The position numbers and the translations under genes are program-made. The notes under the pieces were generated by a model, which worked only from the letters and a program-made list of their open reading frames with translations, searched no databases and was not told the DNA's origin. 64,000 bases of DNA from Nitrospirota bacterium (lineage in GTDB: Bacteria; JACPQY01): positions 174,628 through 238,627 of the forward strand of contig JACPAV010000002.1 in the NCBI GenBank assembly GCA_016180645.1, read 5' to 3'. Below, piece after piece: positions 2,087 to 49,824 of the stretch. Positions within the stretch are counted from its first letter, which is position 1; every line of letters begins with the position of its first letter.

Positions 2087-2099
2087 CGCCCCGGAAATA

Positions 2100-3701: not shown

Positions 3702-3784
3702 CTAGTAGGTTCTCATGTCCGCTCCCCGCTCACCTGCGGAACGACAAGCCATGGGGCCGATGTGATCCGACGGCTCTCCGGTGG

Positions 3785-3979: not shown

Positions 3980-4117
3980 GGCTTTCCTCCTCTCCTGTCC
4001 TTTTCGGATTTCCGCAGCCGGCGGTTGCACAACCCCAGCCTATAGCTCCGCAGTGTCCCGTGCCGGCGCCGCCATCGCATCGGACTACAGCCCATCCTGA
4101 ACCGAACGGGGGAACGT

Positions 4118-4624
4118 TCAGCAGGGCTCGACGGACCGCGGCTCGACTTCAACCGCCACGGATTGACCGAGCAGGTCTATCGAGACGATCAGGACGCCTT
4201 TCTTGTCGCAGTTCCTGACGAACTGACCGGCCAGACCTCTCAGAGGACCCCGCGTTACACAGACCACATCCCCCCCCCTGAGATAGGGGTGGGGCCGGGG
4301 CAGACCGTTGCCTAGAAGTTGCCTGACGGCCCCAATCTGATCTTCCGGAATCGCCTCAGGCCGAGCGGGATCGTACCCGATCAAGTCCACCACTCCATGG
4401 GTTTTCTTTGCGTCAAGCCAGTCCTCATAGCTCTCCTCGCATTGGAGAAAAACGTACCCCGGGAAAAGTGGGCGATTCGTCTCTACCTCACGGGATCGAA
4501 TCCAGCGCGAAGCCCGATAGGTGGGGAAAAAAACCTCGGGGAATCGATTCTTCAGAGCACCGGCGACTGCGGCCTCGTGATTGGAGCGTGTCCTTGCTGC
4601 GTACCATTCCATGGTCACTCGCAA
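4118..4624 (-). CDS. NusG-paralog transcription antiterminator (RfaH/UpxY/LoaP-like)
   Basis: N-terminal NGN domain (WYAARTRSNHE...FPEVFFP) and C-terminal KOW-like segment (GDVVCVTRGPLRGLAGQFV); 168 aa; sits at head of a long polysaccharide-type operon. Confidence 0.75.
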   Translation of the reverse strand: MRVTMEWYAARTRSNHEAAVAGALKNRFPEVFFPTYRASRWIRSREVETNRPLFPGYVFLQCEESYEDWLDAKKTHGVVDLIGYDPARPEAIPEDQIGAVRQLLGNGLPRPHPYLRGGDVVCVTRGPLRGLAGQFVRNCDKKGVLIVSIDLLGQSVAVEVEPRSVEPC

Positions 4625-4674
4625 TTCCCTTTCGAAAACCCTATCTGCCTACAACTTCAAGTACTTTCCAGAGA

Positions 4675-4704
4675 TATTCTACCGTATATTGATCCAACGT
4701 GTCA
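4675..4704 (-). promoter_or_regulatory. sigma70-like promoter upstream of NusG-paralog: TTGACA-N18-TAGAAT
   Basis: Minus-strand reading gives TTGACACGTTGGATCAATATACGGTAGAAT in the AT-richer 170-bp gap between the KdsB-like gene and the NusG-paralog start. Confidence 0.4.
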
Positions 4705-4796
4705 AGTTGAAGGCTCCATTCCATGCCCTTTCCATCGTTCGTTAACTTAATAATAGATCGGCCTCAAATTGCAGAAAGTTTAGCCGCCGGCAGCGA

Positions 4797-5582
4797 TCAG
4801 GCGTATCCAAGAGACATGACCTGCCGCAGAACCTCGCCCTGCCGGATCTGCCCACTCAGGCAGCTCTCGACAAGCTGCGCGTCCTCTGGAATGTTGATCG
4901 ATGGAAAACCGCGCGAGAACTCGACCCCCCACAGAGGCTCGTCATGCTCGACCACCCGCGACTGATCGATGGATTCCAAGCATTCAAGAGGGGTGCGCTC
5001 CATCCGGGTGAATCGTCCCAGGAAGTTTCGATGGTAACCCAGGATTCCCAGGATTTTCCTGACCGGATCGAAGGCGCCGTTCCTGAGAGGGAGGCCCGAG
5101 AAATCTCGAGAGCAATACAGGACACGGCCTTTTCGGGAGACTACGCATTTGACCACCGTCCGGTCGGCCAACTCCTTTTTCTCATCGATCTTGGCCACGG
5201 CGTTCCAAGCCTGGATGTCCGGCCTTTCGCGAATGGCCGCGGTCATCCGAAGCAGGTCCTCGGGCAGGACCAGCGGCTCATCGCCCTGGATGTTGACGAC
5301 GTGGGTGCAACTCAGCCGCTCCGCGGCTTCCGCCACTCGGTCCGAGGCCGCCACGTGCGACGCGGACGTCATGGCGACCTTGGCGCCGAGCGGCTCGATC
5401 GCTTCCCGGATCCGCTCGTCGCACGTCGCCACAACCACCTCGCTGAAGCCGCCGCTCAGGACCGCCCGCCGACGCACATGCTCCACCATGGGCAATCCCC
5501 GAATCTCCAGGAGGGGTTTTCCGGGAAAACGACCGGAGGCCATCCTCGCAGGAATGACGGCGGCAATGCGAATCATCTCCAT
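4797..5582 (-). CDS. KdsB-family cytidylyltransferase (CMP-Kdo synthetase-like)
   Basis: AAVIPARMASGRFPGKPL motif typical of 3-deoxy-manno-octulosonate cytidylyltransferase family; 261 aa. Confidence 0.7.
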   Translation of the reverse strand: MEMIRIAAVIPARMASGRFPGKPLLEIRGLPMVEHVRRRAVLSGGFSEVVVATCDERIREAIEPLGAKVAMTSASHVAASDRVAEAAERLSCTHVVNIQGDEPLVLPEDLLRMTAAIRERPDIQAWNAVAKIDEKKELADRTVVKCVVSRKGRVLYCSRDFSGLPLRNGAFDPVRKILGILGYHRNFLGRFTRMERTPLECLESIDQSRVVEHDEPLWGVEFSRGFPSINIPEDAQLVESCLSGQIRQGEVLRQVMSLGYA

Positions 5583-5589
5583 TCTTCGA

Positions 5590-6345
5590 TTATTGCGGAA
5601 ACGCGCCGCAGTCTACATTGATGCATTGTCCGGTGATGGCGGACGCCGCGGGACTCACCAGAAAATGCACGAGTCGCGCCACCTCTTCGGCGATCGGAAG
5701 CCTTCCCAAGGCGGTTTGCTCCCCGGCAAAAGCCGCCAGGTAGGCTTTCACGGACGACCCCGCGGCCGGGGACGCGGGCTCCTCCAGTGCCCCGAGAAGA
5801 TGCTCGGTCTCGATGTAGACGGGGCACACCGCATTGACCCGTATTCCGCGAGGTCCCAGCTCCTTGGCCAATGCCTGCGTAAGGCCGTTCACCGCGAACT
5901 TGCTCGCGCAGTAAACGCTGTTGTTCGCACTCCCCCTCTTCCCCGCCAGGCTGGAAACGTTTACAATGGATCCTCCCGGGCGGATGAAGTTCGACACCTC
6001 GGCGCACCCCCACAAGGTTCCATAAACATTCGTCTCAAAGATCCCCGCCACAAATTCCGGATCCAGGTCACCCAGACTCCGCCATCGCGATCTCCCGGCG
6101 CAATTGACCCACACATCCACTCCCCCCCACCGCCTGACGATTTCGGACACGAAGCCCCCCACTTCCCCTCTATGTCGCACGTCCGCCTGAACATGCACCA
6201 TGCCGTCGGGGAGAGGGTCCGGCCTTGACGATCGCGAGCAGACTCCCACACGGTACCCTTCGGCCAGGAAAACGTCGGCGATGGCCCTTCCGATGCCGCG
6301 CGTGCCGCCCGTTACGGCCGCGATCCCTCCGGAACCCGCCTTCAT
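5590..6345 (-). CDS. short-chain dehydrogenase/reductase (SDR)
   Basis: TGGTRGIGRAI glycine-rich motif, NVSS and YCASK catalytic region. Start set to internal ATG (MKAGSGG) at 6345, giving a 4-bp overlap with the upstream stop. Confidence 0.7.
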   Translation of the reverse strand: MKAGSGGIAAVTGGTRGIGRAIADVFLAEGYRVGVCSRSSRPDPLPDGMVHVQADVRHRGEVGGFVSEIVRRWGGVDVWVNCAGRSRWRSLGDLDPEFVAGIFETNVYGTLWGCAEVSNFIRPGGSIVNVSSLAGKRGSANNSVYCASKFAVNGLTQALAKELGPRGIRVNAVCPVYIETEHLLGALEEPASPAAGSSVKAYLAAFAGEQTALGRLPIAEEVARLVHFLVSPAASAITGQCINVDCGAFPQ

Positions 6346-7082
6346 AGGGTCATCGCCGTGAAACCGCCATCGACCGAGATGACCGCTCCCGTGACGAATC
6401 GAGCCGCAGCGGAGGACAGCCAAAGGACGGCGCCCACCAACTCCTCGGGCCGGCCGAACCGTCCCATGGGCGTGTGACCCAGGATCCTGGCTTTTCGGTC
6501 GTCGTCGATGAAATGCTCCATGCTCCATGGTGTGGGAAAGAAACCCGGCCTCAGGGCGTTGACCCGGACGTCGTACGGCGCCCATTCTCGGGCGAGATTC
6601 TGCGTCAGATTGGTAATCGCCGCCTTCGCCGCTGAATAGACAAACGCCTTCGACAGAGGAGGGCCGGACGAGACGGAACTGAAATTAATGATGGAGCCGC
6701 CGCGTTGCCGGATCATCGTCTCTCCAAACACCTGGCACGCGTAGAGCGGTCCCACAAGATTGACCCCCATGATCCTCTCGATCTCCGCCGCTGAGATCTC
6801 CATGAACGAGGTCGGAGCATTCGTCCCGGCGGCATTGAGGAGGACATCCACCCGTCCAAACCGCCGAAGGATTTCATCGCGACACCGACCGAGATCGTTC
6901 TTGGAGGTCACGTCACACGGCAGGCACCGGGCATCCTTCGACCCCGCTCCCGCAACGTCAAGGACCACGACTTCCATCCCCGCCCCCCGCATGGCCTCGG
7001 TGAGAGCGGAACCCAGGTGCCCGTGCCCCCCGGCCACCACGGCCACCTTGCCCCTCAGAGCGAAGAGATCCTCCAGATTCAC
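6342..7082 (-). CDS. short-chain dehydrogenase/reductase (SDR)
   Basis: VAVVAGGHGHLGSAL glycine-rich motif and YSAAK catalytic region. GTG codon at 7082-7080 begins VNLEDLFALRGKV and overlaps the upstream TGA (GTGA), so the long N-terminal extension in the track is probably not translated. Confidence 0.65.
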   Translation of the reverse strand: MNLEDLFALRGKVAVVAGGHGHLGSALTEAMRGAGMEVVVLDVAGAGSKDARCLPCDVTSKNDLGRCRDEILRRFGRVDVLLNAAGTNAPTSFMEISAAEIERIMGVNLVGPLYACQVFGETMIRQRGGSIINFSSVSSGPPLSKAFVYSAAKAAITNLTQNLAREWAPYDVRVNALRPGFFPTPWSMEHFIDDDRKARILGHTPMGRFGRPEELVGAVLWLSSAAARFVTGAVISVDGGFTAMTL

Positions 7083-7936
7083 GGACGCGCGGGAAAGGGA
7101 CCGCCTTCGGCAGACCGCCCGGCCGAAGCCCGTCCCTTCTTCACGTGAACGACGGCCCCTTTGCCTCGGCACGCGCAAATGAGAGCCCGCATCCGCTCGC
7201 TCCATTTCCAGAGCACAAAAACGTCGGACGCTAGGACCGCAAAGGTGTATCCCATCTTGAGCACCCGTCCCACGCCCGCACGGGAGGGCGACACCAATTG
7301 CGTGCCGCACGCTTTTCCCCGTCGTCGGCACGCCTGAATGACCCGGGTGCACGCCTGGACGACTCGCCGGTCCTCCAATTGCCCGGGGATCCCCAGGGAT
7401 CCGGACAGGTCGTAGGGTCCCACCATCACGCCGTCCACCTCGGGGCAGGCCAGAAGCTCATCCGCGGCGTCCACTCCCTCGATGGACTCAATCTGAATGA
7501 TGATCGACGAACGCGCGTTCCAGTTCCTAACGTACTCTTCGAAACGGAACCCGTAACCTTGGGCGCGCGCTACGCCGTAGCTCCGTTTTCCCACCGGCGG
7601 GTACTTGCACCACTCGACCAGGCGTTCCACCTGCTCCCGAGTCGAGACTTGCGGCACGATGAGTCCGGCGGCTCCGGAGTCCAGCAGCCGCTTGGCTTGC
7701 TCCGAGTTATGGGAGGAGATTCGAGGAAGACAGGGCACCCCCGCCGCGTGGGCTGCCGCGATGATTCGTTGCGCCTGTTCCTGACCGATCGTACTGTGCT
7801 CAAGGTCAATGCCGAGGAAATCGAAACCCGCCAGGCCGAAGGTTTCCGCGATCGAGGGATGGGCGAGCGACATCCAGGCCCCGAAGACGGGGCTCCGCCG
7901 TTGGAAGATTTTCCCGTTCAGGGGGGGACGGGCCAC
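7079..7936 (-). CDS. HpcH/HpaI family class II (pyruvate) aldolase
   Basis: GLAGFDFLGIDLEHS and LDSGAAGLIVPQV segments characteristic of HpcH/HpaI aldolases; GTG start per my reading; 285 aa. Confidence 0.7.
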   Translation of the reverse strand: MARPPLNGKIFQRRSPVFGAWMSLAHPSIAETFGLAGFDFLGIDLEHSTIGQEQAQRIIAAAHAAGVPCLPRISSHNSEQAKRLLDSGAAGLIVPQVSTREQVERLVEWCKYPPVGKRSYGVARAQGYGFRFEEYVRNWNARSSIIIQIESIEGVDAADELLACPEVDGVMVGPYDLSGSLGIPGQLEDRRVVQACTRVIQACRRRGKACGTQLVSPSRAGVGRVLKMGYTFAVLASDVFVLWKWSERMRALICACRGKGAVVHVKKGRASAGRSAEGGPFPARP

Positions 7937-7942
7937 CGTCGT

Positions 7943-8275
7943 TCAGGCCGGTCGGCCGTTCCGTGTCCAACGCAACTGGAGCAGGCGTTTCCCGCCCGCC
8001 GGCCACTGTCTCAAGGCTTGGTCCAACGTGTAGACGGGATTCGCATCCCGGCGATCTTTCACCGCAACCGTCCCGGGCGCGTTCGTCTTGAGAAACACCC
8101 CGACCGCCGATTCGACGGCGCCCGATTCGGGACAATAGCAATCCTTCGGAAGAAACCGGTTGTGTGGGCCGCCCAGCACCATTCGGTTTCTGTAGATCCA
8201 TATTTCCGGGCCAGGTTGCCTCGGCCCAGGCCGACGCGGAAGTCGAACGCCTCCGCATGCTTCCGGTTCTGCCAC
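7943..8275 (-). CDS. hypothetical protein (about 110 aa)
   Basis: ORF fits the operon gap: 27 nt after the transaldolase stop and 6 nt before the HpcH start. No recognisable motif. An alternative ORF in another frame (8059-8302) overlaps it. Confidence 0.3.
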   Translation of the reverse strand: MAEPEACGGVRLPRRPGPRQPGPEIWIYRNRMVLGGPHNRFLPKDCYCPESGAVESAVGVFLKTNAPGTVAVKDRRDANPVYTLDQALRQWPAGGKRLLQLRWTRNGRPA

Positions 8276-8302
8276 TTTTGATACCAGCGGTGGGGCTCCA
8301 TC

Positions 8303-8998
8303 TCACTTCTTTTGAAGTCGGGTTCCGTCTTCCAGGAATTGCCGGACCGTCTCTTTGCTGTAGGGATGCACCAGGATCGTTTCCACCAGCGAGGGGACCA
8401 CCGTGACGATGTCCGCGCCGGCCTCAAACCACTCGATCACGTTCAACGCCTCCCGCGTGGACCCGGCGATAATTTTCGCCCCGTTCCCGAAGGCATCGAG
8501 CAGACTCCTCGTCCGCCGGATCTCCGTCCGGGAATCATATCCCATGTTGTTGACCCGCCCGCCGAAGATCGAAACATACGTTGCCCCGGCCATCGCGGCG
8601 AGCAGGCACTGTTGCGCGCTCAACATGGCCGTCACATTCACACGAATGTTTCCTTTCGATTCCAGCTCGTGCGCCAGTTTCAGGTATTCCGTTCCCCCGT
8701 TGGGTCCGTGGATGGGAATTTTCACGACCGCATTCTTGCCCCATCCCGCCATGAGGCGGGCCTGCTCCCGCATTTCGGCGGGGTCTCCCGCCGTCACCTC
8801 GAAGGAAACCGGCAAGGGGTCCACAAGGCGGGCCATCTCCCGGCAGTGCGTTTGCATGCCTTCCCAACCGCCCCCGATTCCATCTCTCAGAAGGATCGTG
8901 GGATTCGTCGTCACTCCGCGGATGATTCCCAGTCGATGGTACTTCTCAATTTCCTCCAGTTTGCCGGTATCGAGAAAAAGGCCCGTGAGCCGCGTCAT
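8303..8998 (-). CDS. transaldolase / fructose-6-phosphate aldolase (TalC/FSA) family enzyme
   Basis: GVTTNP motif and VVKIP lysine region. Start set to internal ATG (MTRLTGLFLDTG) at 8998, a 4-bp overlap with the upstream stop. Confidence 0.75.
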   Translation of the reverse strand: MTRLTGLFLDTGKLEEIEKYHRLGIIRGVTTNPTILLRDGIGGGWEGMQTHCREMARLVDPLPVSFEVTAGDPAEMREQARLMAGWGKNAVVKIPIHGPNGGTEYLKLAHELESKGNIRVNVTAMLSAQQCLLAAMAGATYVSIFGGRVNNMGYDSRTEIRRTRSLLDAFGNGAKIIAGSTREALNVIEWFEAGADIVTVVPSLVETILVHPYSKETVRQFLEDGTRLQKK

Positions 8999-9711
8999 GG
9001 CGCCGCTCCCACCGAGGCGCCCCCCGCCTCCCTGGAGGCGGATTTCGACTCGGACTCCCACCTGTTCCCCGCGATCGCGAGGCGCGGATCGCAAACCATG
9101 GCGTGCCACACCACGGACTGGAACGACTCCGTGTAGGGCGTCACGCTCTCAGCGTTGACCGTTGGGACAATCAAAACGATGTCCCCCCGCCTCGACGTGT
9201 GGCCGCCGTCGCGTCCGACGATGCCCAGGACGTCCATCCGGCGTCGCTTGGCCTCCTCGATGGCGTCCACCAGGTTCAAGCTGACTTGAGGTTCCACGCT
9301 CCCTCCCCCCACCGAAAGGACAAAGAGGACATCCCGCGGGCCGGCGTGACTCACGCCCAGCCACGCGGAAAAGACGGTCCGCCACCCCTCGTCATTGGTC
9401 CTCGCCGTCAATTCGGAAACGTTGTCCACGGGCGAATAGGCTTCGATTCCGGCCAACTTTCGGAAATCGTTCACGGCGTGACTGCAGTTTCCCGCACTCC
9501 CGCCGACACCGCACAAGAAAAGGCGTCCACCCGCTTCGCGAAGTCCCACCAGGCGTTCCACCATGCGATCCATCACGGAAACGTCGATTCGGCGGGCCAC
9601 CTGCGCAGCCTCCCGCATATAGCGCCGGAGATATCCGGAATCGCGGACCTTCCCTCGTGCGCCCGCGGCGCGGTTGTTCGTGCCCCGGTTGCGGCCTACG
9701 AGCATGCTCAT
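8995..9711 (-). CDS. SIS-domain sugar-phosphate isomerase (GmhA / phosphoheptose isomerase-like)
   Basis: GGRLFLCGVGGSAGNCSHAVNDF matches the SIS/GmhA nucleotide-sugar isomerase signature; 238 aa. Confidence 0.7.
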   Translation of the reverse strand: MSMLVGRNRGTNNRAAGARGKVRDSGYLRRYMREAAQVARRIDVSVMDRMVERLVGLREAGGRLFLCGVGGSAGNCSHAVNDFRKLAGIEAYSPVDNVSELTARTNDEGWRTVFSAWLGVSHAGPRDVLFVLSVGGGSVEPQVSLNLVDAIEEAKRRRMDVLGIVGRDGGHTSRRGDIVLIVPTVNAESVTPYTESFQSVVWHAMVCDPRLAIAGNRWESESKSASREAGGASVGAAP

Positions 9712-10790
9712 GCCTCGCTTCCCTTTCGCCCATCGGATTTCCTGCCGACCACCCGCGCAAAAGAGCTCATTCGCATCTCCTGGAGGAAGGACTGAAATGC
9801 TTCTTGCACCTCGGAACCGCTCTCCAGAAGCCGGCGCTCGAAGGGAGACAGGGGAATGGCCCCATCTTCTTGTGCGTGAACACGAACCGTCTCGATATCC
9901 AGAGCGCCCGGCGTGCTGACCTCGATCAATTCAAACCCTGTGGCCCGGAGGAGCTGCTCAAGCCCCGCAAGCCCAAAGCAATTCGTCCGATCCGGCGGAT
10001 AGAGATACTTGTTGCGCAATCCCAAGACGGTCATATCGAACCCCGAGCTGACCGCCGCCGTCAGAAAGAGGAGACCACCCTCCACCAAGCGTTCGCGGAC
10101 CCCGCGGAGGAGCCGGGCCGGGTCTCGCGCCCGGTCGAGCGCCTCCAGCAGAACCGCAACCCCCGCCCGCGCGACCGTTCTCCTCCGGGTGCCTTCTTCC
10201 AATTCCCGGACCTCGCTCCCCACGGCCGTTTCGGTCAATCGTGCCTCATCCACCGTTGACACTTCGGAAAACAGCCGCGACCCCCGGAGCAGGGGGGCCA
10301 TGTCGCCCGGCGGTATCCCCACATCCAGCGCGTGAGTTCGGCCCATTCCGTGAAGCCGCAGACTGTTCCGGATCCATTCGATCTTGGGGAGATACACCTT
10401 GTCCTGCCTCGAAGCCGCCAATCCCGGGGAGAATTCCAGGTTCCTCCGTCGTCCCTCTGCGGTGCTCCTCAAGACTTCCGCCCACCGATCGGCGTTGGGA
10501 ATCTCCTGAAGGAAGAATCCTCGGCAGCGGCCGCAGCCGGCGTACGGAAGTTGCTCCACCACCCCGATCGGCGCCAGGTCCAAGTGACACGCCGGACAGG
10601 AGGTTCGGGGTGTCCCCGACACCCGCAAGGCGTTTCTCACCGTGTCGATGCAGAACGACCGGTATCCGCCCAGCCGGTCCAGCGGCTTGACGGAAGACAG
10701 GGGAACCGCAAGACCGGATTGGACCGAGAAAGGGACCGGAGACAACGATTCAGGCGTGGGAGAAGCGGAGCGATATTCTTCACCCCACAT
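9708..10790 (-). CDS. putative SAM-dependent methyltransferase with N-terminal zinc-ribbon
   Basis: CPACHLDL...GCGRC (CxxC-N17-CxxC) followed by HALDVGIPPGD motif-I-like and downstream methyltransferase-like segments; resembles sugar C-methyltransferase architecture. Family assignment tentative. Confidence 0.5.
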   Translation of the reverse strand: MWGEEYRSASPTPESLSPVPFSVQSGLAVPLSSVKPLDRLGGYRSFCIDTVRNALRVSGTPRTSCPACHLDLAPIGVVEQLPYAGCGRCRGFFLQEIPNADRWAEVLRSTAEGRRRNLEFSPGLAASRQDKVYLPKIEWIRNSLRLHGMGRTHALDVGIPPGDMAPLLRGSRLFSEVSTVDEARLTETAVGSEVRELEEGTRRRTVARAGVAVLLEALDRARDPARLLRGVRERLVEGGLLFLTAAVSSGFDMTVLGLRNKYLYPPDRTNCFGLAGLEQLLRATGFELIEVSTPGALDIETVRVHAQEDGAIPLSPFERRLLESGSEVQEAFQSFLQEMRMSSFARVVGRKSDGRKGSEA

Positions 10791-12342
10791 AGGTCAACCT
10801 CCGGGTGACTTCGTCCTCGCCGTACATGATTTGGTAGTACTCGCGAGAAAGCCGCTCAAAGACCTTGTTTCCCAACTCATCGAAACTCTCCGCCCTTCGG
10901 ATATCGCCGGCGCGCGAAATCGGAAGTTTGACATGGAGCGGGAACGTTCGCTGCAGCCCAAGGATCTCCTTGGCCGAGAGGTAGGGGGCGGGCATGTCGA
11001 GAATGGACTCCCCGATGACGGACGTCGTCTGCCGTTCGGGATCCAGCCAACCCGCCCGGACCGCCGCATCTCGGAGCCCCGTGCCATGGTAGGGCACAAA
11101 AATATTGACGCTGACCGAGTCGAACGACCCGATTTCGCGATTCAGCGCGATGGTGTCGAAGAACAGTTCCCGCGTTTCAAACGGAAACCCCACCATGTTG
11201 TTGAGCGTAAACGGGATGCCCACTTTGGCCACGGTGGAACATTTCTCGAGGATTTTCGCGTTCGTCACGTGCCGCTCGATCACCTTCTTCCGAAACGCTT
11301 CATTTCCGTGCTCAAGGCCGAAAGAGATCCGGTAACATCCGACCTCTTGAAGCCAAGTCAGTTTCTCCTCATCGATGTCTTCGAGGCGCGTCTGGAACCA
11401 GAAGGGGATTTTGAAATCACGGTACATACGCGCGAAAGATGCGATTTCCGCCTTGGGGCGGGCCATGAACGCATCGTCCACGAAGTAGAAGAACTCCGGG
11501 GAATAGCGCCGGATCATCTGCTCCATCTCGTTTCGGAGGGTTTCCATGCTCTTCCGGCGGAGGAAGAAGCCCTGCTTCTTCTCCTTGGCGATCACGAGCT
11601 GCGTGGGTGAATTGCAGAAGGAGCAGGTATAGGGGCAGCCCCGGTAGGTCTCGATCGGGATGGTCTTCCATATCTTCTTTCCGAGGGGTCGGAAGAACCG
11701 CTTTTCGGAGAAGAGTGACCAATCGGGAAGGACCCGGTTGATGTCGACCAGCGGTCTCGGGAGGTTCCGCGCGAAGGCGCCGTCGGGCGTTCGAACCCAG
11801 GCGCCCGGCAGGGTCGCGAGATCGGCTCCTTGACGGACGCGCTCGCAGAATTCCACGAGGGTCTCCTCCCCTTCACCGGTTCCCATGACGGAAACTTGGG
11901 GGGCTGCGGCGACGATGTCGGGGGCCATGGTGGCAAATACGCCTCCAACGAGAGTCCGGATGTCCGGGTAGGTGGAGAGGATCTCCAGCATGCGTTTCGC
12001 CTGCGGCCAGGCATCCTCGACCAGTGTGCACAGGACGGCCGCGTGAGGCTTGAACGCGTCGAGCTTGCGGGCGAAATCTCCATCCAGATCTTCGCGGACG
12101 TCCGGGAAGATGTCGCCCGGCTCGAACCGCCGGCTGTTGACCATCTTGTTGGCGCGCGTGATGGGCAAGGCCTCCCCGAGAAACTCGATGGCGGGGCGAT
12201 AGGGCGTGGCATCGAAAAGATCGATTTCGTAGCCCTGATTCTTCAAGAGAGAAGTGAAGAGCGCGACGGCGTACGAAGGGGTAAGCATGAGGCTCAAATT
12301 GGGGTAGACCAGGAGTACGCGGAATCGGGTTTTCTCAATCAC
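10780..12342 (-). CDS. B12-binding domain radical SAM enzyme (second paralog)
   Basis: N-terminal RVLLVYPN B12-binding-like region and CPYTCSFC (CxxxCxxC) motif; 520 aa. Confidence 0.8.
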   Translation of the reverse strand: MIEKTRFRVLLVYPNLSLMLTPSYAVALFTSLLKNQGYEIDLFDATPYRPAIEFLGEALPITRANKMVNSRRFEPGDIFPDVREDLDGDFARKLDAFKPHAAVLCTLVEDAWPQAKRMLEILSTYPDIRTLVGGVFATMAPDIVAAAPQVSVMGTGEGEETLVEFCERVRQGADLATLPGAWVRTPDGAFARNLPRPLVDINRVLPDWSLFSEKRFFRPLGKKIWKTIPIETYRGCPYTCSFCNSPTQLVIAKEKKQGFFLRRKSMETLRNEMEQMIRRYSPEFFYFVDDAFMARPKAEIASFARMYRDFKIPFWFQTRLEDIDEEKLTWLQEVGCYRISFGLEHGNEAFRKKVIERHVTNAKILEKCSTVAKVGIPFTLNNMVGFPFETRELFFDTIALNREIGSFDSVSVNIFVPYHGTGLRDAAVRAGWLDPERQTTSVIGESILDMPAPYLSAKEILGLQRTFPLHVKLPISRAGDIRRAESFDELGNKVFERLSREYYQIMYGEDEVTRRLTYVG

Positions 12343-12381
12343 CGGCCATCGCCTCCGCGCGTCGCGTCCCGTCTCGACCGG

Positions 12382-13470
12382 TCATCGCGATTCGGCAAGG
12401 GTCGCAGACGGGCCCGGGCGCCGATCTCCCCAGATCCTCGGTCGACGGGGCTCTTGGGGTTCGAGGCCCGGCCGGCGTCCCACACAGGCATAGACTTCAC
12501 GCACGAGACTCATGATATGGGCGGCCTCCGGGAGCGTGCCGTGCGTTGGGGATCGCCCTTCGAGGATGGAGTCGACGAATTCAAACGTTTCTTTCTTCCA
12601 TGAATCGTCCCGATCGAAGTAGATGATTTCCTCCCGAGGATTGCCCAGGGCCAGCGCCTCGTCTTCGAATTGGCGCCGACCGACCACCAGTTGTTCCCGC
12701 CCATAACTGCCTGTCTGGGACAGGAGGCCCGAGAGAACCAAGTACCCGTCCCTGCACCCGACCTCGACTCGAAAGGTATGCTTCCAGAGGGTCGCGGACG
12801 AGTGCAGGAAAGCCGGGACTCCCCGTTCCGATTCGAGAAGCACGAAGGCATTGTCCTCCACCCCGCATCCCCAGAATGAATCGCGGAGAACGGCCTGAAC
12901 CACCCTCATCGGGCCGCAGAAAAATTGAAAGAGATCCAGCATGTGGACTCCCTGGTCCAGCAGGATTCCCCCCCCCGACACCTCGTATCGATTCCGCCAA
13001 TTTTCCCGATAGTTCAATCCGCCGGACTTGCCGTAGGTGGCCTTAAGGTGAATGACCTCCCCCAACCCGCCTTCTCCCAGAAATGCCTTCGCCGCCTGGA
13101 CGGATGGGTGGAGCCTGTGGTTGAACCCGAAGACGATCCTCCGACGGGTCTTCCCCGACACGGCCTCTGCGATCCGAGAAAAATCCTCCCAGTTCCGGCC
13201 CGGCGGTTTCTCACAAAAGACATTTCCGCACCGTTCCAACGCTTCCACGCAGAGGTCTACGGTCACATCGTTCGGTGTGCAGACAAACGCCGCGCCTACG
13301 TCGCTCCAGTCTACCTCCTCCGAGGACGTCACCCAGGCCACATCCCCGCCGGTCACCGGGACAGGACCGGCAGGCTCCACGATCCAGATCCTGCCGACGC
13401 GCGGATGTTCCCGGAGAACCCGATGGCGAATTTTCCCCATGTATCCGAATCCGAAAATGACGCAGTTCAC
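12382..13470 (-). CDS. Gfo/Idh/MocA family oxidoreductase (second paralog)
   Basis: MNCVIFGFGYMGKIRH Rossmann start, VCTPND and EKPPG motifs; 362 aa. Confidence 0.7.
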   Translation of the reverse strand: MNCVIFGFGYMGKIRHRVLREHPRVGRIWIVEPAGPVPVTGGDVAWVTSSEEVDWSDVGAAFVCTPNDVTVDLCVEALERCGNVFCEKPPGRNWEDFSRIAEAVSGKTRRRIVFGFNHRLHPSVQAAKAFLGEGGLGEVIHLKATYGKSGGLNYRENWRNRYEVSGGGILLDQGVHMLDLFQFFCGPMRVVQAVLRDSFWGCGVEDNAFVLLESERGVPAFLHSSATLWKHTFRVEVGCRDGYLVLSGLLSQTGSYGREQLVVGRRQFEDEALALGNPREEIIYFDRDDSWKKETFEFVDSILEGRSPTHGTLPEAAHIMSLVREVYACVGRRPGLEPQEPRRPRIWGDRRPGPSATLAESR

Positions 13471-15170
13471 GCCGCTCCTCCACGGTGCGTGAATCCCGCC
13501 GCCTCGAGAAAGGTCGAAATCGAACGCTCCGTCACGAGCCCCAAGTAGGTTTCAACATATTTCAGGGCATTCTCCCAAGCCCCGGGATCGGGCCTGTAGT
13601 CCGGCTGGAAGGCGGTGTCCAACACCTCGGCCAGCGCGCCGGGTGACTCCGTCCAAAGCCGCCATTCGTTCATGCCCGCAAGGGGATCGCCGGAATGGGC
13701 GGATTGGCCCCTCAGATAGACCGGCCGCAATCCCTGGAGCACCGCATGGAGCGCCGCGGAGGAGCCTCGATAGATGACGAAGGAAGACCGCGCAAAGTCC
13801 TCCTCGACCGGTCTCTCGGAGATCTCCAGATTGGGCCATTTCCGGGCGGACTCTCGTACGCTCGCCAAGACCCGGCGGTCTGGAAGCATGGGGTGTGCCC
13901 TGAGAATAAATTCGCGGTCCGGGAATCGGCGGGCGCACTCCTCCGCCGCGCGATAGAAATCGTCCACTTCCGTCTCCAATCCCTCCGGAACGAAGAGGAC
14001 CGCGCCGAGGTTGGACCGTGGCTGAGACGCTCCCGATCGGAGCCGCCGCCGACAACTTCCGAACCGAATCAGGTCAATTCCGTGGACGTCGTGTCCGGAA
14101 CGCATCGCGGCCAGGGTCTCTTCCCCCAGGCACAAGACCAAGTCGGGTGTGGAACCGGGCCCCAGTTCCTTCGTGGGTCGGATCAACGACAAGGACTCGG
14201 GAAAAAGCATCGTGTGCGCGTAGCCGGCAATTCGCGTGGCCGGCGAGATCTCCTTGATTCCCCGGCCCGCGCACTTCTCCCAACCGTGCCCTTCATAGAG
14301 GGTCAGGAACACGCGGGGACTCCATCGACGGGCGACCTCCCGGCCGATCCAGTAGAACAGGCCGTTGCGATGGGGAAGAAGCCCCAGGCAATCCTGACTC
14401 GCTTGGCGGCAGAGTCCGCGTTCCACGGGGTCGGTCGCGCGCGAGGCTTCCCGCGCCAATCGCCAGGACCATTTCGTTTGGAGGATGGCCATTTGAATCG
14501 GCGCCGACGGCGGCACGAGGGCCACTTCCGCCATCGCGTGCTTCTCCTTCGTCGACAGACGGGATCGGGCAAAAGCGTGAGGATCTCCGCTTGATCCGTC
14601 TCCGCATATCATCAGCGTCCGCACGCCCTTCCGCTCGAGCCTCCCTTGGAGATCACCAAAATAAAAATCGCTGCCGTCCTCCGCCCGGGCCGGGCCATAA
14701 CACCAAGTCTTGATTACAACGTCGAAGTTTCTTCGCGTAAGCTCTTGAATCTCGCGCCTCTGCGAGGCCCGGATTGTCCGAACGGTTTTCCCCGTGCGGA
14801 GCGCGAACCGCCACAGGGTCCGGGTTGAAGACCAAATGCTCCGGAGGGAAAAGGAACCGGCCTTCCCCGCGGCTTGGAGGACTGCATCCGGCCCGCCCTC
14901 CTGCGTCAGAACGGATTCCTGAACGGCGTGGACGGGATGTTTGAGATACAACCAGGGGATAGCCATGACGGGTAGGACCGGAAACCTTCGCCTGATCCGT
15001 TCAAGGACGAGACCCAATTGATGCAGGTCGGGGGACACCGCCGGACCCGATTCCCACCGTCCTGAAAGCTCGCGCCCGGCGCGATTCGGGACGGCCCCGC
15101 CCAACCCCCGCCCAACGGCGTCGGCCATGGCGGTGGGTGTTGAGAGTGGAGCTAGGTCCACCATCCCCAT
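13467..15170 (-). CDS. hypothetical protein, possibly TagF-like transferase (HP motif)
   Basis: 567 aa; contains FILRAHPMLPD resembling the HP motif seen in the two TagF-like paralogs at 34212-37046 and 38749-40122. No clear RBS; start uncertain. Confidence 0.35.
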   Translation of the reverse strand: MGMVDLAPLSTPTAMADAVGRGLGGAVPNRAGRELSGRWESGPAVSPDLHQLGLVLERIRRRFPVLPVMAIPWLYLKHPVHAVQESVLTQEGGPDAVLQAAGKAGSFSLRSIWSSTRTLWRFALRTGKTVRTIRASQRREIQELTRRNFDVVIKTWCYGPARAEDGSDFYFGDLQGRLERKGVRTLMICGDGSSGDPHAFARSRLSTKEKHAMAEVALVPPSAPIQMAILQTKWSWRLAREASRATDPVERGLCRQASQDCLGLLPHRNGLFYWIGREVARRWSPRVFLTLYEGHGWEKCAGRGIKEISPATRIAGYAHTMLFPESLSLIRPTKELGPGSTPDLVLCLGEETLAAMRSGHDVHGIDLIRFGSCRRRLRSGASQPRSNLGAVLFVPEGLETEVDDFYRAAEECARRFPDREFILRAHPMLPDRRVLASVRESARKWPNLEISERPVEEDFARSSFVIYRGSSAALHAVLQGLRPVYLRGQSAHSGDPLAGMNEWRLWTESPGALAEVLDTAFQPDYRPDPGAWENALKYVETYLGLVTERSISTFLEAAGFTHRGGAA

Positions 15171-15264
15171 GCGGTCGGGTGTGTGGATGGGATGGGAGAC
15201 GGAAGGCGTGCTCCGCGTCCCTGGCGCACTTTGTATCTTCGCATCATCCTTGAGCTTATCCTAG

Positions 15265-15293
15265 ATTATAGTTTCAGGTTGAGAGCCTGTCAA
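15265..15293 (-). promoter_or_regulatory. consensus sigma70-type promoter for the leftward operon: TTGACA-N17-TATAAT
   Basis: Minus-strand reading gives TTGACAGGCTCTCAACCTGAAACTATAAT, about 90 nt upstream of the ATG at 15170. Confidence 0.5.
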
Positions 15294-15357
15294 GGCGCGA
15301 TCCTTGTTTCCAAGCACCCCTAAAGTCGCGGCCCCAGCGTCCGAACATCCCCCTATA

Positions 15358-15378
15358 TGTTCGTTCATCAAACGAACA
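15358..15378. promoter_or_regulatory. perfect inverted repeat TGTTCGTT-CATCA-AACGAACA between divergent promoters (candidate operator)
   Basis: 8-bp arms are exact reverse complements with a 5-bp spacer; located between the two consensus promoters. Confidence 0.4.
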
Positions 15379-15398
15379 AACTTTAGGCTCGGGCCGGC

Positions 15399-15426
15399 TT
15401 GACACCGCGACATGCATCACTATAAT
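15399..15426 (+). promoter_or_regulatory. consensus sigma70-type promoter for rightward genes: TTGACA-N16-TATAAT
   Basis: TTGACACCGCGACATGCATCACTATAAT about 24 nt upstream of the GTG start at 15450, with GAAGG/AGGGAAG as possible SD. Confidence 0.5.
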
Positions 15427-15449
15427 TTTCCCCCTGAAGGCACAGGGAA

Positions 15450-16211
15450 GTGGCGCCGCTAGGAAAGAAGTCCGTACTGGTCCTCATACCCGCCCGAGGC
15501 GGGTCCAAAGGCATTCCCCACAAAAACATCGTTGATCTTTGCGGGTACCCCCTTCTGGCCTACGCGATCGCCGCCGCGCGAAAGAGCGCTTTCAACCCGC
15601 GGATCCTCGTCACCACGGACGACGAGGAAATCGCGAGAGTCGCGAGGTCGTTCGGCGCCGATGCGCCCTTTCTTAGACCCGCCGAACTGGGCCAAGACAC
15701 AAGTCCTCTCACGGTGGCCCAACTCCACGCCCTCCATTGGCTTCGCGAGCACGAAGGCTACAGGCCGGCGGCCACCGCCACCGTGCTTCCGACGTATCCG
15801 TTCGTTCGCGCGAAGACGATCGATCAGGTGATCGGGCATGCGTTGAAAGGTATGTCGGCCCGAACGGTGATTCGCACTCCGGCATCGAGTCGCCTCTTTT
15901 TTCTCGAGGATGAAGGAGTATTGAGCCGCGTCCAATTCCGAACGCGATCCAAGCGGTGGTATCTGGGTACGGCCGCCGCGGGGGCCGTGCGGTACTTCCC
16001 CTCCTTTGATCCCGCGGCCATGAACGAGCGCGAGATCCTCCGTCTCATGAAACGATATGCGACCCGTCTCCGGAACTTGGGGATCAACACCCGAGGGCAT
16101 GCCACCATCGAGGTGACTTGGGTTGAAGCCGTGGACATCGATACGCCTCGTGAGCTGACCCTGGCCCGAAAACTGATCGCCTCGGGCGTAAGGCCTGCCC
16201 TTCTTCAATGA
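15450..16211 (+). CDS. CMP-nonulosonate cytidylyltransferase, NeuA family (second copy)
   Basis: VLIPARGGSKGIPHKNI motif; GTG start; 253 aa. Confidence 0.75.
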   Translation: MAPLGKKSVLVLIPARGGSKGIPHKNIVDLCGYPLLAYAIAAARKSAFNPRILVTTDDEEIARVARSFGADAPFLRPAELGQDTSPLTVAQLHALHWLREHEGYRPAATATVLPTYPFVRAKTIDQVIGHALKGMSARTVIRTPASSRLFFLEDEGVLSRVQFRTRSKRWYLGTAAAGAVRYFPSFDPAAMNEREILRLMKRYATRLRNLGINTRGHATIEVTWVEAVDIDTPRELTLARKLIASGVRPALLQ

Positions 16212-34204: not shown

Positions 34205-34225
34205 CCCCTCCTTACGAAGGAGGGG
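34205..34225 (-). other. intercistronic stem-loop CCCCTCCTT-ACG-AAGGAGGGG spanning the upstream stop codon
   Basis: Perfect 9-bp inverted repeat with 3-nt loop; contains the TAA stop of the 944-aa gene and lies about 15 nt upstream of the SD of the next gene; one arm is itself SD-like. Confidence 0.4.
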
Positions 34226-49803: not shown

Positions 49804-49824
49804 TCTTCCTGGCGTTCACACCGT

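What the first reader, a model, noticed from the sequence alone, without database searches (positions are those of the whole stretch)
4797..15170. Operon combining SIS isomerase, transaldolase, HpcH pyruvate aldolase, SDRs, KdsB-like cytidylyltransferase and B12-radical SAM: candidate non-canonical route to a methylated CMP-activated higher-carbon keto-sugar
Canonical ulosonic acid pathways use a PEP-dependent KdsA/NeuB-type synthase. This tightly coupled operon (4-bp start/stop overlaps) instead pairs a GmhA-like SIS isomerase, a transaldolase/FSA-type enzyme and an HpcH/HpaI class II aldolase with a KdsB-family cytidylyltransferase, two SDRs, two Gfo/Idh/MocA oxidoreductases, a B12-binding radical SAM enzyme and a zinc-ribbon methyltransferase. 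By analogy, transaldolase-plus-isomerase pairs build octose phosphates in lincosamide biosynthesis, and HpcH-type aldolases condense pyruvate with aldehydes to 3-deoxy-2-ulosonic acids. The gene content is therefore consistent with assembling, activating and C-methylating an unusual 3-deoxy-ulosonic sugar by an undescribed route. This is inference from domain content only.
Basis: inference. Interest (0 to 1): 0.75.

Follow-up and report, generated by a model that had tools for sequence, protein, structure and literature searches.

The report
Aldolase-based CMP-ulosonic-acid sugar cassette
An eleven-gene operon in an uncultured Nitrospirae bacterium is one copy of a widespread, undescribed gene cassette that appears to build, decorate and CMP-activate a Kdo-like acidic sugar for the cell surface, in this copy without the usual PEP-dependent synthase.

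Summary
The operon is real. It is a minus-strand unit (15,293 to 4,797) with a perfect sigma-70 consensus promoter and five 4-bp gene overlaps. Corrections: there is one GFO gene in range, not two. The first gene is a GT-B-fold protein. The 'zinc-ribbon methyltransferase' lacks a canonical SAM motif. The one large gap holds a methyltransferase pseudogene.

The gene set is strongly co-conserved, in about 75 species-level genomes from more than 12 phyla. The shared core is HpcH aldolase, SDR, SDR and a KdsB-like cytidylyltransferase, often with the GT-B protein. Two front ends are mutually exclusive. Type II, as here, has GFO, an MT-fold protein, a GmhA-like SIS and a transaldolase. Type I has a KdsA paralog whose A5P motif KANRS is replaced by KDCRS, plus a CBS protein.

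Contigs chosen only for that KdsA motif often lack HpcH. HpcH is therefore optional beside KdsA, but it was present in every KdsA-less cassette seen.

The best reading is a cassette for a CMP-activated Kdo-like ulosonic acid, with HpcH as the likely skeleton-forming enzyme in this copy (about 0.5). Product identity and chain length are unknown. I found no literature on it. It is a new variant of a known kind.

The parts
15265..15293 (-). Promoter of the operon: TTGACA, 17-nt spacer, TATAAT (12 of 12 matches). It is divergent from an equally perfect plus-strand promoter at 15399-15426.
   Evidence: Four promoter-like sites were found, against 2.1 expected in shuffles; two of the four are perfect consensus.
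13467..15170 (-). First gene: 553-567 aa (NCBI calls the start at 15128). GT-B-fold protein with an N-terminal helical extension. Putative transferase for the CMP-sugar.
12382..13470 (-). GFO/IDH/MocA NAD(P) oxidoreductase. It is the hallmark of the type II front end.
   Evidence: Pfam PF22725, PF02894 and PF01408. Orthologs of 41-69% identity in about 28 loci.
10780..12342 (-). B12-binding radical SAM enzyme (class B), an optional tailoring gene. C-methylation is inferred.
   Evidence: PF04055 plus PF02310, and a CxxxCxxC motif. No NCBIfam equivalog is reached. Orthologs of 60-63% identity at the same position only in L005, L010, L014 and L065.
9708..10790 (-). Four-Cys motif plus a class I methyltransferase-fold protein. 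It always accompanies GFO. SAM motif I is not canonical, so catalytic status is uncertain.
   Evidence: Methyltransf_23 at E 1.4e-7 here, and in 15 of 16 family members. Conserved C-terminal motifs, but no conserved GxGxG or cysteines. Only weak PDB matches, to the methyltransferase core.
8995..9711 (-). GmhA-like SIS_2 sugar-phosphate isomerase, without CBS domains.
   Evidence: PF13580. TIGR00441 gmhA scores 60.8 bits against a cutoff of 209. The best solved relatives are all phosphoheptose isomerases. The equivalent of His64 is kept and Glu68 is replaced by Asp.
8303..8998 (-). Small (subfamily 5) transaldolase with transaldolase-type catalytic residues. It is an accessory supply enzyme.
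   Evidence: PF00923. 114 bits to the T. acidophilum transaldolase 3s0c. Equivalents of Asp6, Asn28, Glu60, Lys86, Thr110 and Phe132 are kept; Glu and Phe are the residues that differ in FSA. Present in 21 of about 38 type II loci.
7973..8289 (-). Pseudogene remnant of a class I methyltransferase that is intact in related cassettes. This explains the only large intergenic gap.
   Evidence: tblastn of the L005 286-aa methyltransferase: residues 11-40 map to 8289-8200 and residues 205-282 map to 8215-7973, in different frames, and the core is missing. The 79-aa ORF called in public assemblies is its tail.
7079..7936 (-). HpcH/HpaI-family class II (metal-dependent) 2-oxoacid aldolase. It is the invariant heart of the cassette.
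   Evidence: PF03328 at E 3e-33. The GarL His50, Arg75, Glu153 and Asp179 equivalents are conserved and invariant in the clade. Scores are far below the GarL, HpaI and RhmA equivalog cutoffs. 75 genome loci.
6342..7082 (-). Classical SDR 'a'. Closest to sugar-acid (omega-1) dehydrogenases.
   Evidence: PF13561 and PF00106. The best NCBIfam hit is D-mannonate oxidoreductase (226 bits against a cutoff of 281), followed by gluconate 5-DH and KduD. The best PDB hit is gluconate 5-dehydrogenase 1vl8.
5590..6345 (-). Classical SDR 'b'. Closest to polyol/acetoin reductases.
   Evidence: PF13561 and PF00106. The best PDB hits are acetoin reductase and sorbitol dehydrogenases. It is always paired with SDR 'a'.
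4797..5582 (-). KdsB-family cytidylyltransferase. It is the only KdsB-type enzyme among four CTP_transf_3 genes in the window.
   Evidence: PF02348 at E 1.5e-39. NF003952 scores 209 bits against a cutoff of 193; the TIGR00466 kdsB equivalog scores 139 against 155. Solved KdsB structures match at E 1e-35, against NeuA at 1e-8. The other three cytidylyltransferases are PseF-like or unassigned.

Best explanation
The operon is a KdsA-less ('type II') copy of a modular, horizontally spread cassette. The cassette makes a Kdo-like 2-ulosonic acid, tailors it, activates it as a CMP-sugar and hands it to a GT-B-fold transferase for a surface glycan.

Proposed steps in this window:
1. The transaldolase keeps up the pool of a ketose phosphate.
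2. The GmhA-like SIS isomerase converts that ketose phosphate into an aldose phosphate.
3. The HpcH class II aldolase condenses the aldose phosphate with pyruvate, or another 2-oxoacid, into a 2-keto-3-deoxy-ulosonate phosphate. This aldolase replaces the PEP-dependent KdsA or NeuB step.
4. A phosphatase removes the phosphate. It is encoded next to HpcH in most relatives but not here.
5. The two SDRs oxidise and re-reduce one carbinol, giving a net epimerisation, most plausibly next to the freed terminal CH2OH.
6. GFO, the MT-fold protein and the B12-radical SAM enzyme add further redox or methyl tailoring.
7. The KdsB-like enzyme makes the CMP-sugar.
8. The GT-B protein transfers it.

What is shown: gene content, conserved catalytic residues, operon structure, co-conservation and modularity.

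What is inferred: every substrate, the order of the steps, the chain length (C8 from a pentose-P, C9 from a hexose-P or C10 from a heptose-P) and the acceptor.

In KdsA-containing relatives the same reversible aldolase would act on the KdsA product, scrambling C4 or tailoring it, rather than building the skeleton.
For: 1. Domain and residue evidence for each enzyme.
2. The operon is one transcription unit with a consensus promoter and translational coupling.
3. The cassette is conserved in order in about 75 species-level genomes of Omnitrophota, Uhrbacteria, Chloroflexi, Aminicenantes, Elusimicrobiota, Marinimicrobia, Deltaproteobacteria, Nitrospirae, Leptospira, Legionella, SAR11, Prochlorococcus, Flavobacteriia and a Methanomicrobiaceae MAG.
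4. Loci chosen through the KdsB-like gene all carry HpcH.
5. In KdsA-less cassettes HpcH was present in all loci seen (38 found through HpcH itself and 3 through KdsB). HpcH plus KdsB is the irreducible pair when SDRs, TAL, SIS or GFO are missing (L020, L069, L070, L082).
6. A HAD-IA phosphatase gene directly follows HpcH in 19 of the HpcH-selected loci and in all three KdsB-selected loci. This fits a phosphorylated aldol product.
7. HpcH is the only enzyme in the operon that can form a C-C bond yielding a 2-oxoacid. No KdsA lies in the 64-kb window.
8. Type II cassettes occur in lineages not expected to have a Kdo pathway (CPR, Chloroflexi, a methanogen MAG). That expectation rests on established knowledge of these groups.
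9. The flanking genes are glycan genes: GT, Maf/PseD-like, PseB, NeuB and a UpxY antiterminator.
Against: - The same HpcH-SDR-SDR-KdsB core sits directly behind a KdsA-family synthase in 37 loci.
- In contigs chosen only for the KdsA* motif, HpcH is absent from 11 of 29, and five of these read KdsA*-CBS-KdsB-GT-B. HpcH can therefore be dispensable for making a substrate of the KdsB-like enzyme.
- The host is a diderm that probably has a housekeeping KdsA.
- No phosphatase and no 2-hydroxyacid dehydrogenase are in this copy, although both are usual in type II cassettes.
- HpcH enzymes characterised so far act on small, unphosphorylated aldehydes.
- The roles of GFO and the MT-fold protein are unexplained.
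- MAG taxonomy can be wrong.
- There are no biochemical data and I found no literature.
Confidence: 0.5

Rival explanations
1. HpcH is a tailoring enzyme here too. The skeleton is ordinary Kdo, or Kdo-8-P, made by the host's housekeeping KdsA, with SIS and the transaldolase merely raising arabinose-5-P supply. HpcH scrambles C4 by retro-aldol and re-addition, or adds a branch. The SDR pair epimerises another centre. The KdsB-like enzyme activates the resulting Kdo isomer.
For: HpcH-SDR-SDR behaves as an optional trio inserted between CBS and KdsB in KdsA* cassettes (18 with, 11 without). HpcH coexists with KdsA in 37 loci. HpcH-family aldolases are known for weak C4 stereocontrol (established knowledge of GarL and YfaU). 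The operon encodes no phosphatase. Nitrospirae are diderms.
Against: Type II cassettes never carry KdsA, and they occur in CPR, Chloroflexi and methanogen MAGs. The SIS protein is GmhA-like, not KdsD-like. HpcH is retained even where the SDRs are lost.
Confidence: 0.27
2. The 2-oxoacid is made by oxidation rather than aldol chemistry. The steps would be: ketose-P (transaldolase), aldose-P (SIS), aldonate (GFO as aldose 1-dehydrogenase), then 2-keto-aldonate (2-hydroxyacid dehydrogenase). The product would be a Ko-like 3-hydroxy-2-ulosonic acid, and HpcH would act afterwards.
For: GFO, SIS, TAL and a PGDH-like 2-hydroxyacid dehydrogenase are the type II-specific genes. They occupy the place that KdsA* takes in type I.
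Against: This window and L070 lack the 2-hydroxyacid dehydrogenase. L082 lacks GFO, SIS and TAL, yet keeps HpcH and KdsB. The scheme leaves the invariant HpcH without a role.
Confidence: 0.08
3. The KdsB-like enzyme simply supplies ordinary CMP-Kdo, or activates a NeuB-made nonulosonic acid from the same island. The other genes make an unrelated sugar or an acyl side chain, for example a reduced and methylated 2-keto-3-deoxy-hexonate.
For: The window holds two NeuB genes, PseB and Maf/PseD-like genes. NF003952 would name the protein CMP-Kdo synthetase. From memory only, and not verifiable here, a deoxy-hexonoyl decoration was reported on a spirochaete flagellin nonulosonic acid.
Against: HpcH and the KdsB-like gene are linked in nearly all of about 80 loci, most of them without NeuB nearby. 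The other three cytidylyltransferases in the window are the PseF-like partners expected for NeuB. No ligase or acyltransferase is conserved in the cassette.
Confidence: 0.1
4. This is a catabolic or central-metabolism cluster, or a chance adjacency of common enzyme families.
For: Each family also has catabolic or central-metabolism members.
Against: Gene order is conserved across phyla. The cluster is embedded in glycan loci with a GT-B protein, flippases and GTs. No transporter, regulator, kinase or dehydratase typical of sugar-acid catabolism is present.
Confidence: 0.02

Closest known systems
Canonical CMP-Kdo pathway (KdsD, KdsA, KdsC, KdsB) and its capsule paralogs KpsF/KpsU
   Same: The logic is the same: sugar-phosphate isomerase, C3 addition giving a 2-keto-3-deoxy acid phosphate, phosphatase, then a KdsB-family cytidylyltransferase. 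The cytidylyltransferase is a true KdsB-family member. Type I relatives carry KdsA- and KdsC-family genes.
   Different: This operon has no KdsA and no KdsC. The isomerase is GmhA-like (SIS_2, no CBS) rather than KdsD-like. An HpcH class II pyruvate aldolase sits where KdsA would be. There are two SDRs, GFO, an MT-fold protein and a B12-radical SAM enzyme in addition. The KdsA paralogs of type I relatives carry KDCRS in place of the KANRS arabinose-5-P motif.
LmbR/LmbN octose-8-phosphate module of lincosamide biosynthesis
   Same: A dedicated transaldolase is paired with a GmhA-like isomerase to turn a ketose phosphate into a higher aldose phosphate.
   Different: The downstream steps differ: an aldolase and CMP activation here, against a kinase, a phosphatase and GDP activation there. 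The transaldolase is optional in the cassette. The substrates are unknown.
HpcH/HpaI class II pyruvate aldolases (GarL, HpaI/HpcH, YfaU/RhmA, hydroxyketoacid aldolases)
   Same: The fold is shared. The metal ligands and the catalytic His and Arg are conserved. A reversible reaction between a 2-oxoacid donor and an aldehyde is expected.
   Different: This is a distinct clade (about 30-37% identity; about 140 bits against equivalog cutoffs of 370-440). It is encoded in glycan-biosynthesis operons next to a cytidylyltransferase, not in catabolic operons. The acceptor is probably a phosphorylated sugar.
NeuB-type nonulosonic acid pathways (Pse, Leg, Neu5Ac, Kdn) with CMP activation and Maf transferases
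   Same: They produce CMP-activated alpha-keto acid sugars for surface or flagellin glycans. Such genes lie in the same island.
   Different: The synthase family, the cytidylyltransferase subfamily and the precursor supply are all different. The cassette has no aminotransferase or acetyltransferase.
Pyruvate-dependent class I lyases that can run in reverse (NanA, Kdo aldolase)
   Same: They make ulosonic acids from pyruvate plus an aldose.
   Different: Their fold and mechanism are unrelated (Schiff base rather than metal). They are known as catabolic enzymes, not as parts of CMP-sugar operons.

Membership tests
Canonical Kdo pathway | KdsB-family CMP-Kdo synthetase | tested here: met
   PF02348. 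NF003952 scores 209 against a cutoff of 193. E 1e-35 to solved KdsB structures. The TIGR00466 equivalog is not reached (139 against 155).
Canonical Kdo pathway | PEP-dependent Kdo-8-P synthase KdsA | tested here: not met
   No DAHP_synth_1 gene in the operon. No tblastn hit to cassette KdsA in the whole 64-kb window.
Canonical Kdo pathway | KdsD/KpsF-type arabinose-5-P isomerase (SIS plus two CBS domains) | tested here: not met
   The SIS protein matches SIS_2/GmhA, has no CBS domain and gets no KpsF/KdsD hit.
Canonical Kdo pathway | KdsC HAD-IIIA phosphatase | tested here: not met
   No HAD gene in the operon. No tblastn hit to KdsC or to the cassette HAD-IA in the window.
HpcH/HpaI class II aldolases | HpcH_HpaI TIM-barrel domain with the catalytic His and Arg and the Glu and Asp metal ligands | tested here: met
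   PF03328 at E 3e-33. Equivalents of GarL His50, Arg75, Glu153 and Asp179 are aligned and conserved and invariant in 20 orthologs.
HpcH/HpaI class II aldolases | Membership of a characterised equivalog (GarL, HpaI, RhmA) | tested here: not met
   143 against 407, 141 against 369 and 115 against 441 bits.
LmbR/LmbN-like higher-sugar phosphate module | Transaldolase with transaldolase-type (Glu/Phe) rather than FSA-type (Gln/Tyr) residues | tested here: met
   Alignment to 3s0c and to its E60Q/F132Y variant 4xz9.
LmbR/LmbN-like higher-sugar phosphate module | GmhA-family isomerase acting on the transaldolase product | tested here: inconclusive
   Family-level match only (42-61 bits). The His is kept, Glu is replaced by Asp, and the phosphate loop is partly kept. 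The substrate cannot be tested.
LmbR/LmbN-like higher-sugar phosphate module | Anomeric kinase plus NDP-sugar pyrophosphorylase downstream | tested here: not met
   No kinase or NTP_transferase in the operon.
ADP-heptose pathway | GmhA equivalog together with HldE, GmhB and HldD | tested here: not met
   gmhA scores 60.8 against a cutoff of 209. No HldE, GmhB or HldD in the operon.
NeuB-type nonulosonic acid pathway | NeuB-family synthase and a NeuA/PseF/LegF-type cytidylyltransferase in the unit | tested here: not met
   No NeuB in the operon. PseF scores 37 against a cutoff of 206. NeuB genes lie elsewhere in the island, with their own PseF-like cytidylyltransferases.
Class B (cobalamin) radical SAM methylases | N-terminal B12-binding domain, a radical SAM core and CxxxCxxC | tested here: met
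   PF02310 and PF04055, plus the motif in the translation. No equivalog is reached, so the reaction is unknown.
Class I SAM methyltransferases (the 'zinc-ribbon MT') | Glycine-rich SAM-binding motif I | tested here: not met
   The family consensus at that position is LEVvTPPSdF; the window has LDVGIPPGD. The fold-level match to Methyltransf_23 is retained.
TIGR04326 surface carbohydrate biosynthesis protein / GT-B transferases | Score above the family cutoff; GT-B two-Rossmann fold | tested here: inconclusive

The most novel reading that the evidence does not exclude
The HpcH clade would be a third, pyruvate-dependent class of ulosonic-acid synthase, after the KdsA/DAHPS and NeuB families. Together with a GmhA-like isomerase it would build a so far undescribed Kdo-like sugar. 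That sugar may be C9-C10 and C-methylated. It would be CMP-activated and displayed by many uncultured bacteria, CPR organisms and some archaea. The KDCRS KdsA paralogs of SAR11, Prochlorococcus, Leptospira and Legionella would make a related non-Kdo ulosonic acid.
Probability: 0.35. Interest if true: 0.85.

Novelty: new variant of a known kind. Interest (0 to 1): 0.68.

Why it matters
Alpha-keto acid sugars such as Kdo, sialic acids, Pse and Leg shape bacterial surfaces, phage receptors and immune recognition. All known routes use a PEP-dependent KdsA- or NeuB-type synthase.

This cassette is uncharacterised and widespread. It occurs in groundwater Omnitrophota and CPR bacteria, in marine SAR11 and Prochlorococcus islands, in Leptospira and Legionella, and in a methanogen MAG. 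It pairs a class II pyruvate aldolase with a KdsB-like activating enzyme.

If the aldolase is the synthase, three things follow:
- It defines a new biosynthetic logic and probably a new family of surface sugars.
- It gives a marker for annotating thousands of 'CMP-Kdo synthetase' and '2-dehydro-3-deoxyglucarate aldolase' genes that are misnamed today.
- It offers a PEP-free biocatalyst for ulosonic acids.

The modular structure provides natural experiments for assigning each step. That structure comprises type 0 (KdsA*-CBS-KdsB-GT-B), type I (the same plus HpcH-SDR-SDR) and type II (KdsA* replaced by GFO, the MT-fold protein, SIS and TAL).

Tried and rejected
- **Literature.** Seven full-text searches combined HpcH, aldolase, KdsB/CMP-Kdo, ulosonic, O-antigen and capsule terms. 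None described the cassette. A remembered lead, a deoxy-hexonoyl decoration on Treponema denticola flagellin sugar, could not be checked because the paper is not held.
- **Plasmids and phages.** tblastn of HpcH found only relatives of 33-38% identity on haloarchaeal plasmids and nothing in phages.
- **Rfam.** No match over 3600-16300, so there is no riboswitch or leader RNA.
- **SDRs.** Solved-structure searches gave only generic neighbours and no specific function.
- **MT-fold protein.** Pfam and PDB profile searches place it only at fold level.
- **HpcH sequence differences between cassette types.** I looked for type I versus type II differences that might reveal different substrates. Few positions are fixed and the catalytic residues are identical, so this was not decisive.
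- **The 7806-8306 and 7943-8275 ORFs.** I considered them as real small genes and rejected this. The region is a methyltransferase remnant.
- **Catabolic reading.** Rejected on genomic context.

Full report
**1. The observation**

Eleven minus-strand genes fill window positions 15170-4797. Pfam and NCBIfam confirm the following:
- a GFO/IDH/MocA oxidoreductase (12382-13470);
- a B12-binding radical SAM enzyme (10780-12342; CxxxCxxC present);
- a four-Cys, Methyltransf_23-like protein (9708-10790);
- a GmhA-like SIS_2 protein (8995-9711);
- a TAL_FSA protein (8303-8998);
- an HpcH_HpaI aldolase (7079-7936);
- two classical SDRs (6342-7082 and 5590-6345);
- a KdsB-family cytidylyltransferase (4797-5582).

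Five junctions overlap by 4 bp.

- Only one GFO gene lies in range. The second is at 1058-2188.
- The 366-bp gap between the transaldolase and HpcH genes is the remnant of a 286-aa methyltransferase that is intact in relatives. Its N- and C-terminal pieces are in different frames and its core is deleted.
- HpcH starts at GTG 7936.

The source is a Nitrospirae MAG: the HpcH protein is identical to an NCBI 'MAG: Nitrospirae bacterium' protein on a 369,728-bp contig, and the same DNA is assembled from three public sequencing runs.

**2. The individual enzymes**

- **HpcH.** It keeps the GarL His50, Arg75, Glu153 and Asp179 equivalents, and these are invariant in 20 orthologs. It scores far below the GarL, HpaI and RhmA equivalog cutoffs and reaches only about 110 bits to any solved aldolase. 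Cassette orthologs from other phyla score 373-408 bits at 63-72% identity. It is therefore a distinct clade and not a catabolic enzyme that has strayed here.
- **Transaldolase.** It aligns to the Thermoplasma acidophilum transaldolase with equivalents of Asp6, Asn28, Glu60, Lys86, Thr110 and Phe132. Glu60 and Phe132 are exactly the two positions changed in the FSA-mimicking variant 4xz9. This is a transaldolase, not a fructose-6-phosphate aldolase.
- **SIS protein.** It matches only phosphoheptose isomerases among solved structures, and weakly (about 42 bits). The catalytic His is kept and Glu is replaced by Asp.
- **Cytidylyltransferase.** It is clearly KdsB-type (E 1e-35) rather than NeuA- or PseF-type.
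- **SDRs.** Their nearest neighbours are sugar-acid and polyol dehydrogenases such as gluconate 5-DH, mannonate oxidoreductase, KduD and sorbitol DH. No assignment is specific.
- **MT-fold protein.** It keeps the central and C-terminal methyltransferase motifs. Family-wide it has neither a glycine-rich motif I nor conserved zinc-ribbon cysteines, so its activity is uncertain.

**3. Co-conservation**

Neighbourhoods of three HpcH orthologs showed the same gene order straight away. A scan of one genome per species returned 75 loci. The lineages include Omnitrophota, Uhrbacteria, Chloroflexi, Aminicenantes, Marinimicrobia, Deltaproteobacteria, Thermodesulfovibrionia, Flavobacteriia, Legionella, Leptospira noguchii, SAR11, Prochlorococcus, several alphaproteobacteria and a Methanomicrobiaceae MAG.

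tblastn with the window proteins, and an all-against-all clustering of the ORFs, gave a clear picture. HpcH-SDR-SDR-KdsB, in this order and often followed or preceded by the GT-B protein, is the shared core. It comes with two mutually exclusive front ends.

- **Type II** (38 loci, including the window): GT-B, GFO, MT-fold protein, SIS, (TAL), HpcH, (HAD-IA), SDR, SDR, KdsB, (PGDH-like 2-hydroxyacid dehydrogenase).
- **Type I** (37 loci): KdsA-family synthase, stand-alone CBS pair, (NanM-like O-methyltransferase), HpcH, SDR, SDR, KdsB, GT-B, (KdsC).

Three contigs chosen through the KdsB-like protein instead (an Elusimicrobiota MAG and two others) all carry the full type II cassette with HpcH. 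The B12-radical SAM ortholog is present in only four other loci, at the same position. Various methyltransferases are inserted between SIS/TAL and HpcH, which is where the window has its pseudogene.

**4. The KdsA complication**

The type I synthases pass the KDO8PS equivalog cutoffs (328-356 bits against 242). However, all 31 carry K-D-C-R-S where every solved KDO8PS has the arabinose-5-phosphate-binding K-A-N-R-S/T motif. They are therefore a neofunctionalised paralog, here called KdsA*, that probably uses another aldose phosphate. That the motif governs A5P binding is my recollection of published KDO8PS work and was not tested here.

Of the 29 contigs with at least 1.8 kb downstream of KdsA*:
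- 18 carry HpcH-SDR-SDR-KdsB;
- 11 lack HpcH;
- in five of those 11, the order is simply KdsA*-CBS-KdsB-GT-B.

So next to KdsA*, the HpcH-SDR-SDR trio is an optional and therefore tailoring insertion. In KdsA-less cassettes, by contrast, HpcH was present in every case seen. HpcH plus KdsB is what remains when SDRs, TAL, SIS or GFO are lost (L020, L069, L070, L082).

**5. Mechanism**

All four core families are known to bind 2-keto-3-deoxy sugar acids. The most economical model is that HpcH catalyses the reversible reaction between pyruvate plus an aldose(-phosphate) and a 2-keto-3-deoxy-ulosonate(-phosphate) in all versions.
- In type II it would be the net synthase. It would be fed by the SIS isomerase, with the transaldolase as an accessory supplier, and followed by the HAD-IA phosphatase that is usually encoded right after it.
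- In type I it would work on the KdsA* product, scrambling C4 or tailoring it in some other way.
- The SDR pair would then epimerise one carbinol, and the KdsB-like enzyme would make the CMP-sugar for the GT-B protein.

For this window, the synthase role is favoured by four points:
- SIS and TAL are present.
- No KdsA lies in 64 kb.
- No other enzyme in the operon can make a 2-oxoacid.
- Type II cassettes occur in lineages that should lack Kdo genes.

It is weakened by four points:
- The type I and type 0 data of section 4.
- The operon has no phosphatase.
- The host probably has a housekeeping KdsA.
- The roles of GFO and the MT-fold protein are unexplained.

I put the synthase model at about 0.5 and the tailoring rival at about 0.27. 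An oxidation route (GFO plus 2-hydroxyacid dehydrogenase) gets about 0.08; this window lacks the second enzyme. 'Ordinary CMP-Kdo or a NeuB product' gets about 0.1. Chain length (C8, C9 or C10), stereochemistry, methylation sites and the acceptor are all unknown.

**6. Context**

Positions 1 to about 48,300 form one minus-strand glycan island. It contains:
- PseB (474 bits against a cutoff of 408);
- two NeuB genes, one fused to a xylose-isomerase-like TIM barrel;
- three further CTP_transf_3 genes, two of them PseF-like;
- DegT, a formyltransferase and two WbqC genes;
- two Maf/PseD-like flagellin-modification proteins;
- several GT-B glycosyltransferases;
- a 944-aa protein combining Capsule_synth/TagF-like, methyltransferase and TPR parts;
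- a UpxY-family NusG paralog immediately downstream of the operon.

The KdsB-like gene is the only KdsB-type cytidylyltransferase in the window, which fits a pattern of one synthase per cytidylyltransferase. In other genomes the cassette sits among flippases, ABC transporters, GT2 genes and dTDP-sugar genes. The acceptor glycan therefore varies.

**7. Novelty**

None of the searchable literature describes an HpcH-KdsB cassette. Public annotations call these proteins '4-hydroxy-2-oxovalerate aldolase', '2-dehydro-3-deoxyglucarate aldolase' and 'CMP-KDO synthetase'. No curated NCBIfam model captures the HpcH, SIS, TAL, SDR or GT-B members.

The kind of system, biosynthesis and CMP activation of an alpha-keto acid sugar, is well known. 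The enzyme set, the modular swap of KdsA* for GFO, the MT-fold protein, SIS and TAL, and the KDCRS KdsA paralog are not. I rate this a new variant of a known kind, with interest of about 0.68.

Noticed in passing
window 7973-8289 (minus strand): A methyltransferase pseudogene. The N-terminal (aa 11-40) and C-terminal (aa 205-282) pieces of a 286-aa class I methyltransferase, intact in L005 and L006, lie in different frames with the SAM-binding core deleted. Public gene calls list the tail as a 79-aa ORF.
   Followed up: yes
window 15265-15293 (-), 15399-15426 (+), 4676-4705 (-): Two perfect 12/12 sigma-70 consensus promoters lie back to back in the 280-bp divergent region. A third, 11/12, lies ahead of the NusG paralog. 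This is striking in DNA of 62% G+C.
   Followed up: partly
window 4118-4624 (minus strand): A UpxY/LoaP/RfaH-like NusG paralog (UpxY family, 83 bits against a cutoff of 100) sits between this operon and the next glycan operon. It is probably a processive antiterminator for the island. No target (ops-like) site was sought.
   Followed up: no
window 255-3701 (minus strand), continuing beyond the left end (L002): A second tailoring set: another B12-radical SAM enzyme (2100-3701), a second GFO (1058-2188) and a PseF-like cytidylyltransferase (255-1061). In L002 these are followed by a methyltransferase-TPR protein, an SDR, a NeuC-like epimerase, a PseB-like enzyme and DegT. The GFO plus B12-radical SAM pairing therefore recurs next to a nonulosonic-acid pathway.
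   Followed up: partly
window 25153-27099 (minus strand): A NeuB-SAF protein fused to a C-terminal AP_endonuc_2 (xylose-isomerase-like TIM barrel) domain, 648 aa. This is an unusual architecture for a nonulosonic acid synthase.
   Followed up: no
window 28121-32006 and 34212-37046 (minus strand): Two Maf/PseD-like flagellin-modification proteins, and a 944-aa protein that combines Capsule_synth/TagF-like, methyltransferase and TPR parts. No flagellin gene lies in the window, so the modified protein is unknown.
   Followed up: no
L045 7715-8593 and 30 other loci; L086-L165: The KdsA paralogs linked to the cassette all carry K-D-C-R-S in place of the KDO8PS K-A-N-R-S motif, together with the metal-type GPC motif.
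   Followed up: partly
L045 11774-13428 (Leptospira noguchii serovar Panama): An IS element (rve integrase, 12043-12858) and a PhyH fragment lie between the two SDR genes. The cassette may be inactivated in the only well-known cultured carrier.
   Followed up: no
L101, L094, L158, L097, L089: A minimal 'type 0' cassette, KdsA*-CBS-KdsB-like-GT-B, without HpcH or SDRs. Other contigs (L092, L146, L115) have different genes inserted between CBS and KdsB, for example two proteins of about 310 aa or a 663-aa acyltransferase-like protein.
   Followed up: partly
window 48394-50645: At the right border of the island lie a MerR-like regulator with a Gly/Asn-rich tail (48394-48861), an Hsp20 gene (49372-49803) and a HigB/HigA-like toxin-antitoxin pair (50367-50645 and 50040-50351). 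These assignments rest on reading the translations only. G+C drops to 0.58-0.59 here.
   Followed up: no
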